A DNA stretch of 61,742 nt, from IMG/VR virus record IMGVR_UViG_646311924_000011; one strand, given 5' to 3'. Positions 36,001 through 42,000 of the stretch are shown in pieces. The position numbers are program-made. Each line of letters opens with the position of its first letter. The stretch's first letter is position 1. The DNA is from a virus. Taxonomy: Duplodnaviria; Heunggongvirae; Uroviricota; Caudoviricetes.

Positions 36001-39000
36001 GTACGGTGACGCTCAATATGCTGTTACGCCGCAGTCTTGTTGAGGTTAGCATACCCGGAGAACTGCTGACAGATTTCCGGCAGATACAGAATAATGTGGC
36101 TGATGACCTTGCCACTATTCGTCGCCTGAATGAAGACACGGCGACAAAAAACACTCAGGCCACACAGTCAAAAGAAAGTGCAGCAGCCAGTGCGAAGAGT
36201 GCATCTGACAGTGCAAAGACGGCAACCAGCAGGGCGGCTGAAGCCGGACAAAAAGCGACTGATGCCACTGAGGCTGCGACCCGTGCAGTCACAGCAGCGG
36301 GGAATGCAGAGGAAAGCTCGACCCGTGCCGGAGAGTCTGAAAAAGCCGCCGGAGCTGATGCAGAAAAAGCCAGACAGCATGCTGAAAAGGCCAGGCTGGC
36401 GCAGGAGAGCGCCGGAGAGATCCTTAAGCGGGCAGAGGCTGCCACTGTCAGTGCTGAAGAGGCCAGACGTATGGCTGAGAATGCACGGGGGCCCCGGGGG
36501 CCTCAGGGAGAAACTGGTCCGAAGGGGGATGTCGGTCCTAAAGGCGAAACAGGTCCAGTGGGCCCTCAAGGGCCCGCAGGGCCGAAAGGTGAGCGTGGTG
36601 ACGTTGGTGCTCAGGGGGCTGTAGGGCCTGCTGGTCCGCGTGGTGAGAAGGGCGAACAGGGGGAGCGAGGACCGCAGGGAATACCAGGCCTGAAGGGGGA
36701 TACCGGAGAGCGGGGGCCTAAAGGGGACCAGGGGGATATGGGGCCAAAAGGCGAGAAAGGTGATCCGGGAGGTCCTGCAGGCCCGCAAGGTCCTAAAGGC
36801 GAACGAGGAGAAGCCGGACCACAGGGACCGATGGGAGCACGAGGTGAGCGTGGGGAGACTGGCCCCCGAGGTGAACCTGGTCCTGCAGGTCCGAGAGGCG
36901 AACGAGGAGAGACCGGACCTCAGGGACCTCGTGGAGAGCCAGGTCCGGCAGGCAGCGCTGCAAATGTGGCTGATGCAACGACGGCACAGAAGGGAATTGT
37001 GCAGTTAAGCAGCGCAACGGACAGTGATGATGAAACGAAGGCTGCCACCCCGAAAGCGGTGAAAGCGGCAATGGATGTGGCAAATGAAGCGAAAACAAAG
37101 GCAGAAGAGGCTGCAGCAGGAGGTGGTGTTCCCGGTCCGAAAGGAGATAAAGGGGACACGGGGCCAGCAGGTCCGGCTGGGCCGAAGGGTGATAAGGGAG
37201 AGCGCGGTGACACCGGCCCTGTCGGGGCAACCGGCGAACGGGGACCGGCAGGTGATGCTGGTCCGGCAGGCCCGCAGGGGCCGAAAGGTGACAGGGGAGA
37301 GCGGGGAGAGACCGGTCTGACGGGAAATGCAGGTCCACAGGGTCCAAAGGGAGATACCGGTGCGGCAGGCCCGGCAGGCCCACAGGGACCGAAAGGAGAA
37401 ACAGGTGCGGCAGGCCCGGTGGGGGCGACCGGACCTCAGGGGCCGAAGGGCGACCCGGGGGAGACGCAAATACGGTTCCGTCTGGGGCCGGGAAACATTA
37501 TTGAGACAAACAGCCATGGCTGGTTCCCGGATACAGATGGCGCACTCATCACCGGACTGACCTTTCTTGACCCCAAAGATGCCACACGGGTTCAGGGTTT
37601 TTTTCAGCATTTGCAGGTCAGGTTTGGTGACGGGCCGTGGCAGGATGTCAAGGGGCTGGATGAAGTGGGCAGTGATACAGGCAGAACAGGAGAATGACAT
37701 GAATATTTTGAGAAAGCTTATGCAGAGTCTGTGCGGTTGCGGAAAGCATGATGACTGTGAAAACGGGCAGTCGCTTACAGCACAACTGCGACTGGGACCG
37801 GCAGACATTCTGGAGTCAGATGAGAATGGCATTATTCCGGAGCAGGACAGGGTAATCACACAGGTGGTGATACTGGATGCAGATAAAAAGCAGATACAGT
37901 GTGTGGTAAGACCGCTGCAAATCCTGCGTGCTGACGGGACGTGGGAAAATATTGGCGGGATGAAATAGCCGACAGCTTCACAAAAACCGGAGCCCGGCTC
38001 CGGTTTTTGTTGTCATGTATAGGGGGGTGCCCCTATTAAGTTGTCAAGCATGTTATGACGCCTGCGGGGTATAAAAAGTCCCGTCGCGCATCATGGCGAA
38101 CAGAACGTCGCAGCGTCGTCTCGCCAGGGCGATAAGCGCCTGATTGTGTCGTTTTCCCTGACTCATTTTGCGGGTGTAGTAAGCCCTGGAGAGCGGATCC
38201 CTGAGCGCGGCGAAGGCCGACAGGAACAACGCCCGTTTGAGAGCTTTATTACCCCGTCGCGAGGGATGCTCACCGCGTATTGACGAGCCGGATCGCCGAG
38301 TTACCGGCGCAAGGCCAGCATAAGCAGCGAGATGTGCGGCAGAGGCGAAGGCGCGGCAGGCGACCTCGGTGAGGAGTCTGGCTGCGGTCCTGACACCGAC
38401 TCCGGGCATACTGGTCAGGACCGGGTAAAGAGGGTGAGCAAGAACTCGCTGTTCTACCTCAAGCGCCACCTCGTCTCTTTGCTTACGCAGCGTGATGAGC
38501 TGGAGTGCCAGACGTGGCAGTACTACGGCAGCGGCATTCGTGCCGGGAACGACGACGGTTTGTTCGGCCAGTGCCTGAGCTATGTCTGCTGCAAGGCGTT
38601 TACCCAGACGAGGCGCAAGTTTGCAGAGCTGGGCTGCCAGCTTCTTCTCACCCAGCGAAGCGAGTTTTTCTGGTGAGGGATATCGCTGGAGAAGATCGAG
38701 TACCGCCGGGTGATCAAGTCTCGGACCGAGAACGCGCTCCAGTGCCGGATGTATCTGGGTCAGAAGGCCGCGGATACGGTTGCTGGCCTGCGTTGTCTGT
38801 GCGGCAAGATCATCATCGAAGCCGCAGAGCATGGAGAGTTCGGCGATTTGCTCGTCAGCCAGTTTCAGCGTGCGTAGCGCGTGAGGCAGGGTACGGGCAG
38901 CTTCGGCAATGATGGCAGCGTCACGAGCATCAGTTTTAGCTTCACCGGCGTGTAAGTCGGCTATGCGGCGCATGGCCAGTCCAGGGAGGTATCCGACAAG

Positions 39001-42000
39001 GACTCCTTCTGAGCGGGCAACGGCGACAGGTAACGCACCGATGGTAGCTGGCTGATCAACAACCAGCAGTATCTGACCATGTTGTTTCAGGTCAGATATT
39101 AGCGACCTGAGTTTGTTTTCGTCGTTGGGTAATGCTTTATCGAACAGGCGTTTACCTGAACGATTAATGGCTACAGCGTGATGCGTATCTTTACCGACAT
39201 CAACGCCGATAAAGACCTGGACGGATTCGTAATCGCTGGATTCGGTCATTCTGTCTCCCTTGTATATGGGTTAACCAGATAACCACGGGGAGCAGGTACC
39301 GGCATCCACGTTACAGACGGTCCCGGCAAAAGTGCCTGACCTGACCCCTATTAGCGGTTACCAGCGCCCCACCAGACCCGGTGACATCACCCCCCGGATC
39401 ATGGACGACTGGGGGCAGTAATCATGCCGGGTCTGGCTGGCTAACACCCCATTATAAGGGGTACGAATAAAGTAACGGGTTATTAGAGAGTGAAGTAATA
39501 AACATGTTAATACGATGGAGTGAAGGATGCCGTGTAATTCTGGTTCAAGAGTTTTTTATGCCGGAAAATCGCAGGATTATTCTGGATAGTAAAGAATCCT
39601 GGTTAATAATCTGTGATAGTCAGTTGGGCCATTTAATGCGCAGTATGTATCAGGGACGCCGTTTTATTCAGCTGAATCTGGAAAAATTGAAAGGGGTACA
39701 TGATGTCGCCTTGCCAGTGAAATGGGAATTCACACGAAGACAGTGAATAGCTTTCTGTATACGGGAATGGCGAAAAATGGACTGTATGGTGTGAGTGTGA
39801 AACATCTTGCGTGTGCGGAGTGATGCTTCTCGTTGCTACAGCGGCAATGATAATGCAGTGAAAAAAGGGGAGCAATATGCTCCCCCAAACCGAAAGAAAA
39901 TTGCAATAATCAATGAAGTTATTTAGTCATCATCAGAATGTCATGCAAGGCATTTTGTTTCAGTGATGCCGATCGCGATTTTAGCGAATTCCATCATAAA
40001 TCCCCTGATTTTTAAGCCTGAAGCAGTCAAAGGAATTTCTATGCCCTATATCGATATCACCACGATGCGTGGGATGATGCCGCGCGTTGTGACATCCATG
40101 CTGCCCGAGCATTCCGCTGTACTGGCGGAGGACTGCCATTTCCGGTTTGGTGTTATTACACCAGAACGTCAGATATCCGGGGTTGAGAAAACATTCACAA
40201 TTAAGCCAAAAACAATTTTTCATTACCGTGACGATTTCTGGTTTGCATGGCCGGATGTGGTGGATGTGATCCGCAGTCCGATCGCTCAGGACCCCCACGG
40301 GCGTATTTACTACACTGACGGGCGTTTTCCTAAAGTGACGGATGCGACTATTGCCACAAAAGGGGACGGGAATCACCCGACATCATCGTATCGTCTGGGG
40401 ATCCCCGCGCCGACGACAGCTCCTGTCTGTACTGTTCAGCAGGGCGGTGATGTTTCTGACGATAACCCGAATGATGATGAAACCCGGTTTTATACGGAAA
40501 CCTTTGTCTCAGATTATGGTGAAGAAGGTCCGCCAGGTCCGGCGTCTCTGGAGGTAACACTCCGTACTCCGGGAACTGCGGTACAACTGACGCTGGCTCC
40601 GGTGCCATTGCAGAATGCCAGTATTAAACGTCGCCGGATTTATCGCTCTGCATCAGGTGGAGGGGAGGCGGATTTTTTACTTGTGGCTGAACTGGATGCA
40701 TCCGTGCTCAGTTACACGGACAAAATACCGGCGAAAAACCTTGGGCCTTCCCTGGCGACATGGGATTACCTGCCGCCGCCAGAGAATATGACAGGCCTTT
40801 GCCTGATGGCTAACGGTATTGCCGCCGGGTTTGCCGGTAATGAAGTGATGTTTTCGGAAGCGTATCTGCCGTATGCATGGCCGGAAGTGAATCGTCACAC
40901 GACGGCAGAAGATATTGTAGCTATCTGTCCGCTGGGAACGTCACTGGTGGTGGCGACAAAGGGGGAGCCTTATTTGTTCAGTGGGGTATCACCGTCCACA
41001 ATTTCTGGTTCCAAAATCCCTTCAATGCAGGCGTGTCTGAGCAGGCGGAGTATGGTTGCGATGGAGGGTTTTGTGCTGTATGCAGGAACAAATGGCCTGG
41101 TGTCTGTTGATGCAAACGGTAATGTCGCGCTGGCGACGGAACAGATTGTTTCACCGGAACAGTGGCAGAGTCAGTTTAATCCGGCCTCCATTGTGGCTTA
41201 TCCCTGGCGTGGTGAATACATTGCCTGTTACACGAAACCGGATGGTAAGCAGGATGTGTTTGTATTCAGTCCGGTGAACATGGATATCCGTTATCTCAGT
41301 ACACCGTTTGACTGCGCATGGGTTGATCTCGCGAAAGATATGATGCGCGTGGTGACAGGAGACAAAATGTCAGTGCTTGCCGGGGGGGCTCTGCCCTCCA
41401 CGATAAGGTGGCATTCAAAAATTTTTTCATTACCTGAAAGAACCTCTTTTTCCTGTATCAGGGTGAAATCTCCGGCGCCTGAGCGGGTGGGGATCACCAT
41501 TATGGCTGATGATGTTCCTGTGATTCATTTTGCGCCGGGTACGTTTAAGGGAAGTGTGGTGAGACTTCCGGCAGCAACCGGGCAAAACTGGCAGGTGATG
41601 GTATCCGGATTCGGGCAGGTGGAACGAATAACCCTGAGTACATCAATGTCGGAGATGCCGGTATGACCAGAAAACCGTGGCGTGCGGGGAAGGATTTATC
41701 CACTGTTGTGGAGAATATGGAAATTGGCACCGGGCAGCGTGGTGACGGACGTCACGCATTTGTGACCCGTGAGGAACTGGTTGGTCTTAAACTCGCCCGG
41801 CGTCGAACATCGGGTGGTGCCTCATATGCACTGAATCCGGGTATTGAGATTGACAGTACTTTAATGACTGTTGATTTTCCCACAAAACCGCTGAATTTTA
41901 AGGCGACCGGTGGATTTGGCTCGGTTCTTCTTGAATGGGATATGCCTAATTATCGCGGACATTCACTGACTGAAATCTGGCGGGGTACGGAGGATGACCT

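What the first reader, a model, noticed from the sequence alone, without database searches (positions are those of the whole stretch)
38010..39480. GC-rich IS110-family element inserted in the tail module
An intact-looking 398-aa DEDD-type transposase gene sits between the collagen-like fibre gene and the tail/J-like genes, with a clear GC shift and local hairpins at the left flank (37990-38006 and 38021-38037). IS110-type elements target specific, often palindromic, sites and lack inverted repeats, so the exact insertion point and its effect on late-operon read-through are unresolved; the insertion may render the prophage tail operon polar.
Basis: partly seen in the sequence, partly recalled or inferred. 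Interest (0 to 1): 0.45.

Follow-up and report, generated by a model that had tools for sequence, protein, structure and literature searches.

The report
ISEc20 insertion in 933W-like prophage
This is an intact copy of ISEc20, a catalogued RNA-guided insertion sequence, sitting in a run of G's between two genes of a 933W-type prophage; a plaque-forming phage carries the same insertion, so it is ordinary and probably harmless to the phage.

Summary
A 1450-bp element at window 38028-39477 (minus strand) interrupts a 933W-type prophage. It is ISEc20, of the IS110 family and IS110 subgroup, and it is base-for-base identical to the canonical copy found in many E. coli genomes.

Comparison with IS-free phage 933W fixes the insertion point to within 1 nt. 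It lies inside an intergenic G8 run, 59 nt after the tail-fibre C-terminal gene and just after the phage's own terminator hairpin.

The 227-nt left end has the anatomy of a bridge RNA: two covarying stem-loops whose internal loops carry conserved guides. The target guides (CCCCCA, GGGGGGUG) match the C-run target. The donor guides (UAAUAGGGGU, GUAACGUG) match the element's own ends, and one donor guide covaries with the right end in relatives.

All 61 distinct insertion contexts examined, from Escherichia/Shigella, Burkholderiales and Microbacteriaceae among others, are flanked by C-runs.

The polarity idea is not supported. Phage SH2026Stx1 carries the identical IS at the same site and forms plaques at high titre.

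The element, the same-site insertion and the presence of a bridge RNA in this IS cluster are all already on record. Interest is low.

The parts
38028..39477 (-). ISEc20 insertion sequence (IS110 family, IS110 subgroup). Net insertion of 1450 bp relative to phage 933W. Because the boundary falls in a homopolymer, 38027-39476 is equally possible.
   Evidence: Flanks are 100% identical to IS-free 933W up to 38027 and from 39477. Positions 38028-39476 have 0 mismatches to ISEc20 copies in 8 other records. More than 1500 E. coli records hold it at >=99% identity, annotated as ISEc20.
38053..39249 (-). Transposase / bridge recombinase gene, 398 aa, intact. The residues that align with the IS621 catalytic residues are D17, D65, D107, D110 and S320.
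   Evidence: The alignment to IS621 (PDB 8wt6) places D17, D107, D110 and S320 opposite IS621 D11, D102, D105 and S241, and D65 opposite E60. D17, D65, D107 and S320 are invariant in 46 relatives; D110 is D in 45 and N in one.
38028..38052 (-). Right end (RE), 25 nt, non-coding. It contains the donor half-site TAATAGGGG (38030-38038), the proposed core CA (38028-38029) and a TTGACA -35 hexamer (38042-38047).
   Evidence: Read directly from the sequence. The 9-nt identity to the left-end guide was reached in 0.1% of shuffles.
39250..39477 (-). Left end (LE), about 227 nt, non-coding. It contains a -10-like TACTTT (39469-39474) which, in a circular form, would sit 17 nt from the RE TTGACA. The transposase Shine-Dalgarno sequence AAGGGAGA is at 39254-39261.
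   Evidence: That a junction promoter forms in the circular form is the published IS110 model (PMC11208160). Here it is inferred from the sequence only.
39287..39462 (-). Predicted bridge RNA, about 176 nt: a 5' hairpin (39446-39462), a target-binding stem-loop (stems 39427-39437 / 39371-39381) and a donor-binding stem-loop (stems 39354-39369 / 39288-39303). The ends of the RNA are inferred.
   Evidence: Alignment of 56 left ends. The helices are 95.9% paired, 21 pairs show changes on both sides, 0 of 500 shuffles reach this, and slid controls give 26-51% paired. Durrant et al. list the ISEc20/ISSfl4 cluster as IS110 group with LE as the location, which I read as their bridge-RNA prediction table.
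39410..39415 (-). Left target guide CCCCCA (same sequence as the top strand of the left target plus core).
   Evidence: It is nearly invariant in the 56 relatives, with occasional single-base variants such as CCGCC and CCUCC. The LE-side flank is a run of 4-5 C's in 44 of 61 insertion contexts.
39388..39395 (-). Right target guide GGGGGGUG (reverse complement of CA+CCCCCC).
   Evidence: The RE-side junction reads ...GGGGCA+C6 or longer in 46 of 61 contexts. One relative (L080) has GGGGUG in the guide and CACCCC in the flank.
39344..39353 (-). Left donor guide UAAUAGGGGU (same sequence as the RE end TAATAGGGGC, with a U-G wobble at the last position).
   Evidence: It covaries with the RE: guide AUAGGGAC goes with RE ATAGGGAC in 10 of 10 loci, and AUAGGGG[C/U] goes with ATAGGGGC in 33 of 33.
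39307..39314 (-). Right donor guide GUAACGUG (reverse complement of CA+CGTTAC, the predicted RE-LE circle junction).
   Evidence: reached in 0.7% of shuffles. It is invariant in all relatives. The string ATAGGGGCACGTTAC is found next to copies in L023, L024 and L062.
38022..38027 (.). RE-side remnant of the target homopolymer (GGGGGG on the + strand).
39478..39479 (.). LE-side remnant of the target homopolymer. Together with 39477 it reads GGG. The intact site in 933W is G8.
37980..38010 (+). The phage's own terminator-like hairpin (15-nt arms flanked by an A-run and a T-run), 17 nt before the insertion point. It is not part of the IS.
   Evidence: It is present and identical in IS-free 933W.
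38019..38036 (.). Hairpin created by the junction: phage ATAGGGG paired with IS-end CCCCTAT.
   Evidence: The 3-bp extension beyond the G/C run is specific to this site; other copies have different flanks.
37699..37968 (+). Upstream phage gene, a tail-fibre C-terminal-domain protein (WP_001024006.1). It is intact and ends 59 nt before the IS.
39558..39746 (+). Downstream phage gene, a 62-aa hypothetical protein (WP_001303606.1) in PGAP's annotation, and intact. The older 933W annotation starts this ORF at 38015 (93 aa), in which case the IS would split codons 4 and 5.
   Evidence: PGAP calls the same 62-aa protein in IS-free genomes.

Best explanation
Window 38028-39477 is a full-length and probably active copy of ISEc20, an IS110-group insertion sequence. 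It has inserted into a G8 homopolymer (C8 in the IS's own orientation) in the spacer between two late genes of a 933W-type (Traversvirus) prophage, with its transposase gene facing against the late operon.

Proposed mechanism, which is the published IS110/IS621 model applied here:
1. The element excises as a circle. Its RE-LE junction (...TAATAGGGG-CA-CGTTAC...) brings a TTGACA in the RE to 17 nt from a TACTTT in the LE. This drives transcription of a bridge RNA of about 176 nt from the LE.
2. The donor loop of that RNA pairs with the circle junction, through guides UAAUAGGGGU and GUAACGUG.
3. The target loop pairs with a C-run, through guides CCCCCA and GGGGGGUG.
4. The DEDD/Ser recombinase exchanges strands at a 2-nt core, which is CA in the donor and CC in C-run targets.

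This accounts for the usual junction pattern. The RE junction reads ...GGGGCA+C6, and the LE junction reads Cn+GTTAC with no A.

The phage site is a weak target. Only the right half (C6) and the first core base match the guides.

Shown here: the identity of the element, the junctions, the target preference, guide complementarity, covariation in the RNA structure, and covariation between the donor guide and the RE.

Inferred: that the RNA is made, the circular intermediate, the exact core register, and present-day activity.

The insertion is intergenic and most likely does not disable the phage.
For: Identity of the element:
- Pfam and NCBIfam domain hits.
- At least 99% DNA identity to annotated ISEc20 in more than 1500 E. 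coli records, with 0 mismatches to 8 independent copies.

Junctions and frequency:
- The IS-free site in 933W and in E. coli genomes fixes the junctions.
- 355 genomes hold the uninterrupted site. Only 4 genomes, plus phage SH2026Stx1, hold the occupied one.

Target preference:
- 14 other E. coli copies and about 45 relatives from other hosts are all flanked by C-runs. The LE-side run is most often 4-5 C's. The RE side is A+C6 or longer in 46 of 61 contexts.

Bridge RNA:
- The two-stem-loop structure shows strong covariation.
- The guide segments are nearly invariant and sit in the internal loops.
- The donor guide matches the RE over 9 nt (reached in 0.1% of shuffles) and the other donor guide matches the junction over 8 nt (0.7%).
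- A G-to-A change in the left donor guide is mirrored in the RE in 10 of 10 loci.
- LTG, RTG and RDG all contain the same CA.
- The guide definitions, and the rule that the core is included in every pairing, come from PMC11208160.
- The ISEc20/ISSfl4 cluster is listed as IS110 group with LE as the location in that paper's supplement, which I read as its bridge-RNA prediction.

The residues at the catalytic positions are conserved.

Phage viability: SH2026Stx1 carries the identical IS at the same site, is inducible and forms plaques at high titre. PGAP places the downstream gene's start 81 nt beyond the insertion, in IS-free genomes as well.
Against: - There are no expression data, no reads showing a circle junction and no transposition assay for this copy.
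- Rfam 15 gives no hit to the left end.
- In the minimum-free-energy fold the two target guides pair with each other, because C5 and G6 are complementary. The 'open internal loop' is therefore assumed by analogy, not predicted.
- The guides are almost invariant across the clade, so covariation between target and guide rests on a single locus (L080).
- The left donor guide does not pair with the second core base in most members.
- The core register cannot be fixed inside a homopolymer.
- Net insertion length is not constant: 1449 bp at yfhM, 1450 here, 1452-1453 at other occupied phage sites. The focB junction has CC where both parents appear to have CA.
- The left half of this phage's target does not match the left target guide at all.
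- SH2026Stx1 differs from this window by two or three G/C bases at the LE junction and by about 2% in the fibre gene, so its viability is strong evidence for this prophage but not proof.
Confidence: 0.88

Rival explanations
1. The insertion is polar or otherwise disables the prophage. Transcription of the late operon stops in the antisense IS, so the downstream tail genes (39963 onwards) are not expressed and no infectious virions form.
For: The IS lies inside the late transcription unit, in the opposite orientation, and adds 1.45 kb of structured GC-rich DNA. The original 933W annotation starts a 93-aa ORF at 38015, and the IS would split it. The occupied site is rare, at 4 of about 360 E. 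coli genomes carrying this region, which would fit a fitness cost.
Against: SH2026Stx1 has the identical IS at the same site, was induced with mitomycin C, gave clear plaques at high titre and was sequenced from virion DNA. The phage already has a strong terminator-like hairpin 17 nt upstream. From established knowledge, late transcription in 933W-type phages depends on Q antitermination, which reads through terminators, so this hairpin already requires read-through. PGAP calls the downstream gene as 62 aa starting at 39558 in both IS-free and IS-bearing genomes, which makes the IS intergenic.
Confidence: 0.08
2. The copy is an inert relic. It looks intact but no longer transposes, and the structured left end is only a leader that regulates transposase expression. 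Target choice is made by the protein, not by an RNA.
For: No functional data exist for this copy. Rfam gives no hit. The guide segments never vary, which on its own is compatible with protein-binding sites. In the integrated state no good -35 lies upstream of the LE -10, so the RNA is probably poorly expressed (sequence).
Against: The sequence is identical to copies at many unrelated chromosomal and plasmid sites, with up to 20 copies per genome, which indicates recent transposition. The donor guide and the RE covary at 10 of 10 and 33 of 33 loci. Three guides share the same core dinucleotide, and their sequences predict the observed C-run target and the circle junction. The family's RNA-guided mechanism is experimentally established for IS621 (PMC11208160, PMC11208158).
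Confidence: 0.07
3. The occupied sites in different phages and strains (this window with UTAK-8; 2014C-3061; SH2026Stx1 with strain 144) all descend from one ancestral insertion spread by phage recombination. They are not repeated hits on a hotspot.
For: The IS sequences are identical and the RE-side junction is the same in all five. Lambdoid phages recombine freely (established knowledge).
Against: The LE-side junctions differ: 3 G's, 5 G's, or 5 G's followed by C. The flanking alleles also differ, with G8-TTATT against G7-CTTATT backgrounds and 2.1% divergence in the fibre gene. A guide-matched homopolymer is just what this IS targets. However, homopolymer slippage after a single insertion cannot be excluded.
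Confidence: 0.35

Closest known systems
ISEc20 (ISfinder name; NCBI 'IS110-like element ISEc20 family transposase', WP_001358663.1), in the same cluster as ISSfl4
   Same: The DNA is identical to the canonical copy over 1449 nt, with the same 398-aa protein. The ends and the flanking G/C runs are the same as in all other copies examined.
   Different: Nothing about the element itself. Only the location differs, and that location is already represented in GenBank by phage SH2026Stx1 and three other E. coli chromosomes.
IS621 and its bridge RNA (Durrant et al. 2024, PMC11208160; Hiraizumi et al. 2024, PMC11208158; PDB 8wt6)
   Same: Same two protein domains, with the catalytic D, D, D and S positions aligned. 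The LE is long and the RE short. The LE RNA has two stem-loops, with the target loop 5' of the donor loop. The left guides have the same sequence as the top strand and the right guides are its reverse complement, and the core is included in the guides. A -35 in the RE and a -10 in the LE would meet only in a circle.
   Different: - The proteins are distant. Only the Tnp domain aligns significantly (E 1e-14), and ISEc20 is 398 aa against 326.
- The position aligned with IS621 E60 is D65.
- The proposed core is CA, not CT.
- The target is a C homopolymer rather than a REP element, so the two target guides are complementary to each other.
- The donor and target cores differ (CA against CC).
- The C-run at the LE-side junction varies in length.
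- There is no experimental work on ISEc20.
IS insertions in Stx-type phages generally, such as the 'mobile element protein' genes in phage PA52
   Same: An IS carried as a passenger in the late region of a 933W-like phage that can still be packaged.
   Different: Here the IS belongs to the RNA-guided IS110 family and sits in an intergenic homopolymer.

Membership tests
IS110 family (IS110 subgroup) | [quoted passage not shown] | tested here: met
   E 6.9e-49, covering the full model 1-155. D17, D107 and D110 align with IS621 D11, D102 and D105, and D65 aligns with E60. D17, D65 and D107 are invariant in 46 relatives; D110 is D in 45 of 46.
IS110 family (IS110 subgroup) | C-terminal Tnp domain (PF02371) with the conserved catalytic serine | tested here: met
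   E 7.3e-22. S320 in RRSGSS aligns with IS621 S241 in YESGSS. It is invariant in 46 relatives.
IS110 family (IS110 subgroup) | No terminal inverted repeats | tested here: met
   The LE starts CGTTACTTTATTCG. The reverse complement of the RE is TGCCCCTATTAAGT. Direct reading shows no complementarity between them.
IS110 family (IS110 subgroup) | Long left non-coding end and short right end (the reverse of the IS1111 subgroup) | tested here: met
   LE about 227 nt, RE 25 nt. The same layout is seen in relatives assembled as single-IS contigs of about 1456-1465 nt. Durrant's supplement lists the cluster as IS110 group with LE as the location.
IS110 family (IS110 subgroup) | LE-encoded bridge RNA with a target-binding loop and a donor-binding loop complementary to the target and the donor | tested here: met
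   Met in silico only. Neither the transcript nor recombinase binding was tested.
IS110 family (IS110 subgroup) | Sequence-specific insertion centred on a short core shared by donor and target | tested here: inconclusive
   Specificity for C-runs is clear in 61 contexts. The core can be assigned only by inference, as CA in the donor and CC in the target, because it lies in a homopolymer. Net insertion lengths vary from 1449 to 1453 bp.
IS110 family (IS110 subgroup) | Excision to a double-stranded circle whose RE-LE junction forms a promoter | not testable with these tools
   No reads are available. The sequence would give TTGACA-17 nt-TACTTT across the junction. The junction-like string ATAGGGGCACGTTAC occurs next to copies in L023, L024 and L062.
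ISEc20 (the named element) | Near-identity of the whole element to the reference copies | tested here: met
   0 mismatches in 1449 nt to 8 copies, and 1-3 mismatches to 7 others. All are annotated by NCBI as ISEc20 family.
IS1111 subgroup (considered) | Guide RNA (seekRNA/bridge RNA) in a long RE, with sub-terminal inverted repeats | tested here: not met
   The RE is only 25 nt and no sub-terminal inverted repeats are seen.

The most novel reading that the evidence does not exclude
The ISEc20 clade uses homopolymeric, mutually complementary target guides (C5/G6). This may let the bridge RNA pair with a C-run in more than one register. The right-end junction would then be exact (CA+C6), while the left-end junction would gain or lose C's at each transposition cycle. 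That would explain the 3-6 C's seen at E. coli ISEc20 sites (0-8 over all 61 contexts), the net insertions of 1449-1453 bp, and the tandem copies separated by CCCC. It may also allow 'half-match' insertion into short runs such as this phage's G8. A plaque-forming phage with a broad E. coli host range would then act as a vehicle carrying an active RNA-guided recombinase between E. coli strains.
Probability: 0.3. Interest if true: 0.35.

Novelty: already known. Interest (0 to 1): 0.15.

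Why it matters
It matters little beyond correct annotation.

- The element should be labelled ISEc20, with its junctions placed in the G8 run. It should not be read as evidence that the prophage is defective.
- The prophage carries, as a passenger, a complete RNA-guided recombinase system that infectious relatives demonstrably package.
- The guide-to-target reading gives a simple, testable rule for where ISEc20 lands in E. coli genomes: roughly CCCC-C(A/C)-CCCCCC.
- It also gives a natural example of bridge-RNA targeting of a homopolymer, with imprecise junctions. 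This may interest people who engineer these recombinases.

Tried and rejected
- Rfam scan of 37000-40500 at E<=1. It gave only chance or terminator-driven hits (RsaOG, DapZ, H19) and nothing for the left end.
- Single-sequence folding of the left end. The minimum-free-energy fold pairs the two target guides with each other, so it does not display the internal loop. I relied on the alignment and covariation instead.
- My first core model (AC in the donor, CC in the target, immediately before GTTAC). I dropped it for CA because LTG (CCCCCA), RTG (GGGGGGUG) and RDG (GUAACGUG) all contain CA in the expected orientation. The register still cannot be proven.
- A strict '2-nt core duplication gives +1450 bp' rule. 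It holds for this window and for focB. It fails by -1 at yfhM and by +2 or +3 at other occupied phage sites.
- Looking for the empty site of copy L006, whose left junction is unusual (CCCT|GTTAC). Its two flanks are not contiguous in any E. coli genome, so it could not be used.
- The rtcB empty site I found carries GGGCGGGG, a synonymous variant, so it is probably not the ancestral allele of the occupied lineage.
- Literature searches for 'ISEc20' and for IS110 with homopolymer targets. They found nothing specific beyond IS lists and the supplement of Durrant et al.
It was found as an inverted repeat instead.

Full report
**What is there**

Between 38053 and 39249 the minus strand encodes an uninterrupted 398-aa protein. 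It has the two domains that define IS110-family recombinases: PF01548 DEDD_Tnp_IS110 (E 7e-49) and PF02371 Transposase_20 (E 7e-22). It passes the NCBIfam equivalog 'IS110 family RNA-guided transposase' at 239 bits against a cut-off of 140.

A megablast of 37900-39600 against complete E. coli genomes finds the central 1.46 kb in 1977 of 5426 genomes. There are up to 20 copies per genome, and the hits listed are all annotated 'IS110-like element ISEc20 family transposase'.

The copy in the window has no mismatch over 1449 nt to eight copies at unrelated chromosomal, plasmid and phage sites. It has 1-3 mismatches to seven others. Its protein is WP_001358663.1.

Aligned to IS621 (PDB 8wt6), D17, D107, D110 and S320 fall on the IS621 catalytic residues D11, D102, D105 and S241, and D65 falls on E60. 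D17, D65, D107 and S320 are invariant in 46 relatives; D110 is D in 45 of the 46. So the element is the catalogued ISEc20, in its canonical and apparently functional form.

**Host and exact junctions**

The surrounding DNA is a 933W-type (Traversvirus) prophage. 342 phage records match 36500-41500, and 340 of them lack the central 1.45 kb.

Phage 933W (NC_000924) is 100% identical on both sides. Identity runs up to window 38027 on the left and resumes at 39477 on the right. One G is shared by both sides, so the net insertion is 1450 bp.

The uninterrupted site reads TGTCATGTATA-GGGGGGGG-TTATTAGAG. In the window it has become ...TATAGGGGGG | TGCCCCTATTAAG...AAAGTAAC | GGGTTATT....

The site lies 59 nt after the stop codon of the tail-fibre C-terminal-domain gene (37699-37968). 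It is 17 nt after a strong terminator-like hairpin at 37980-38010 (-21.7 kcal/mol), which is also present in IS-free 933W.

The old 933W annotation begins a 93-aa ORF at 38015, and the IS would split it. NCBI's automated annotation (PGAP) instead calls a 62-aa protein starting at 39558, both in IS-bearing genomes and in IS-free genomes. On that annotation the insertion is intergenic.

The uninterrupted site occurs in about 355 complete E. coli genomes. The occupied site occurs in four of them, and in phage SH2026Stx1.

**Target preference**

I fetched 13 further loci carrying ISEc20 in E. coli, at 12 distinct sites: near odhB, topB, yfhM, rtcB and focB, on plasmids and elsewhere.
- In window orientation, all but one are flanked by GGGGGG on the right-end (RE) side.
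- All have three to six G's on the left-end (LE) side.

I then fetched 80 loci encoding relatives at 73-99% amino-acid identity, from Shigella, Burkholderiales, Microbacteriaceae and other hosts. Pooling these with the E. coli copies gave 61 distinct insertion contexts.
- In the IS's own orientation, the LE-side flank ends in a run of 4-5 C's in 44 contexts.
- The RE is followed by A plus six or more C's in 46 contexts.

The element therefore targets C homopolymers, not palindromes.

**How it most likely works**

IS110 elements have been shown to use an LE-encoded bridge RNA. Its target-binding and donor-binding loops each carry a left guide, which has the same sequence as the top strand, and a right guide, which is its reverse complement. 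A 2-nt core is included in all four pairings (PMC11208160).

The 227-nt LE of ISEc20 fits this anatomy. An alignment of 56 distinct left ends supports a 5' hairpin and two long stem-loops.
- On my hand-drawn structure, 95.9% of cells are paired.
- 21 pairs have changes on both sides.
- No shuffle out of 500 reaches this.
- Slid controls drop to 26-51% paired (RNAalifold result).

The segments lying inside the two internal loops are almost invariant:

| Guide | Sequence | Window position | Corresponds to |
|---|---|---|---|
| Left target guide (LTG) | CCCCCA | 39410-39415 | top strand of left target + core |
| Right target guide (RTG) | GGGGGGUG | 39388-39395 | reverse complement of CA + CCCCCC |
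| Left donor guide (LDG) | UAAUAGGGGU | 39344-39353 | RE end TAATAGGGGC (last position U-G wobble) |
| Right donor guide (RDG) | GUAACGUG | 39307-39314 | reverse complement of CA + CGTTAC |

- The left donor guide is identical to the last nine bases of the RE before CA (TAATAGGGG). Only 0.1% of shuffles reach this.
- The right donor guide is the reverse complement of CA-CGTTAC, which is the junction a circular form would have. Only 0.7% of shuffles reach this.
- The string ATAGGGGCACGTTAC is found beside copies in three loci.

Where relatives have AUAGGGAC instead of AUAGGGG[C/U] in the left donor guide, their RE has ATAGGGAC. This holds in 10 of 10 loci, against 33 of 33 for the G form. That is covariation between an RNA guide and the DNA end it should read.

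One relative (L080) has GGGGUG in the right target guide and CACCCC in its flank.

**Core assignment**

LTG, RTG and RDG all contain the same dinucleotide in the expected orientation, so I assign the core as CA.
- Ideal target: CCCC-CA-CCCCCC.
- Donor: ATAGGGG-CA-CGTTAC.

For a pure C-run target the core is CC. The usual product has CC at the LE junction and CA at the RE junction, the latter in 58 of 61 contexts. That is what top-strand exchange 3' of the core would give. This last step is inference.

In a circle, the RE's TTGACA (38042-38047) would lie 17 nt from TACTTT (39469-39474). This reproduces the junction promoter described for the family. In the integrated state no comparable -35 precedes the LE.

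Durrant et al. already list the ISEc20/ISSfl4 cluster as IS110 group with LE as the location (supplement). I read that as their bridge-RNA prediction.

**What does not fit neatly**

- The two target guides are complementary to each other and pair in energy-based folds. The open loop is therefore assumed by analogy.
- The left half of this phage's target (CTAATAA) does not match the left target guide at all. Only the first core base and C6 match, so this is a 'half-match' site. That may explain why it is rarely occupied.
- Net insertion length is not constant: 1450 bp here and at focB, 1449 at yfhM, 1452 in strain 2014C-3061, and 1453 in SH2026Stx1 and strain 144. The variation is always in the number of C's next to GTTAC.
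- Plasmid pO177B1 has two tandem copies separated by CCCC.
- The focB junction shows CC where both parents appear to have CA.

Register slippage of homopolymer guides, slippage during replication, or unsampled ancestral alleles could each explain these points. I cannot separate these explanations.

**Effect on the phage**

The best available test is phage SH2026Stx1 (NC_049919). It carries an ISEc20 copy with 0 mismatches at the same site, and differs only by two or three G/C bases at the LE junction.

That phage was obtained by mitomycin C induction. It gave clear plaques at high titre on MG1655 and infected many E. coli strains, and its genome was sequenced from virion DNA (PMC6013618).

The phage's own terminator hairpin just upstream already requires read-through, which in 933W-type phages is provided by Q antitermination (established knowledge). 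I therefore rate a disabling polar effect as unlikely (about 0.08), though it has not been tested for this very prophage.

**Novelty and verdict**

The following are already on record:
- the element;
- its family and its RNA-guided mechanism;
- the predicted location of its bridge RNA;
- this same insertion site, in a sequenced infectious phage.

What I add is:
- the exact junction;
- the explicit reading of guide, target and donor for the ISEc20 clade, with a C-run target and a CA core;
- the observation that the left-end junction varies in length.

Classification: already known. Interest: 0.15.

Noticed in passing
window 20197-20977: The prophage has the Q gene, three tRNA genes (Met/Ile-type CAU, Arg, Arg) and the nanS-like 645-aa gene, but no stxA/stxB between them. 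The 530-bp gap has no + strand ORF of 80 aa or more. The stretch is 100% identical to the stx-less phages phi296, phi315, phi367, PPwrbA_EH2201 and TL-2011a. So this is a stx-negative 933W-type prophage.
   Followed up: partly
L002, L100 and L101 compared with window 39477-39481: The five known occupied copies of this phage site differ on the left-end side of the IS. The window and UTAK-8 have GGG-TTATT. Strain 2014C-3061 has GGGGG-TTATT. SH2026Stx1 and strain 144 have GGGGG-CTTATT. The uninterrupted relatives have G8-TTATT or G7-CTTATT. This indicates either independent hits on one hotspot or homopolymer slippage.
   Followed up: partly
L014 (plasmid pO177B1, NZ_CP024616.1), locus 1759-1790: Two ISEc20 copies lie head-to-tail, separated only by GGGG (...AAAGTAAC-GGGG-TGCCCCTATT...). 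This is either a tandem dimer or an insertion next to an existing copy.
   Followed up: no
L023, L024 (Escherichia/Shigella chromosomes) and L062 (Cupriavidus laharis), just downstream of the transposase stop: The right end is followed directly by C-GTTAC(C/T)..., which looks like a circle junction or a solo left-end remnant (ATAGGGGCACGTTAC). The sequence after GTTAC differs from the element's own left end.
   Followed up: no
L006 (E. coli ETEC4090, NZ_CP122620.1): This ISEc20 copy has an atypical left junction (CCCT|GTTAC) and a short right-hand C-run. Its two flanks are not contiguous in any of 5426 E. coli genomes, which suggests the IS sits at a rearrangement or deletion junction.
   Followed up: partly
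L025-L096 (genome contigs): Relatives with 73-82% identical transposases occur in Burkholderiales (Paraburkholderia, Duganella, Trinickia), Microbacteriaceae (Microbacterium, Cryobacterium, Pseudoclavibacter) and other hosts. Their guide sequences are almost invariant and their insertion sites are C-runs. This is an unusually conserved target specificity across phyla, and it fits the GC-rich composition of ISEc20 within E. coli.
   Followed up: partly
window 35760-37697 and L016 17861-19798: In the window the collagen-like (Gly-X-Y repeat) tail-fibre gene is one 645-aa ORF with up to 70% GC. In the otherwise identical region of E. coli UTAK-8, PGAP annotates it as a truncated N-terminal pseudogene plus a separate C-terminal-domain protein. 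The repeat region is therefore variable between strains or hard to assemble.
   Followed up: no
window 39866-39886 (minus strand): There is a terminator-like hairpin with a T-run on the minus strand, in the AT-rich spacer before the 567-aa tail gene. It is the cause of the weak Rfam hits to RsaOG and DapZ.
   Followed up: no
window 38015-38027 with 39477-39746: The 93-aa ORF annotated in the original 933W record (ST933Wp61) starts at the ATG at 38015, right after the terminator hairpin, and has no Shine-Dalgarno sequence. PGAP prefers a 62-aa version starting at 39558. The true start is unverified, and it decides whether the IS clips a coding sequence.
   Followed up: partly
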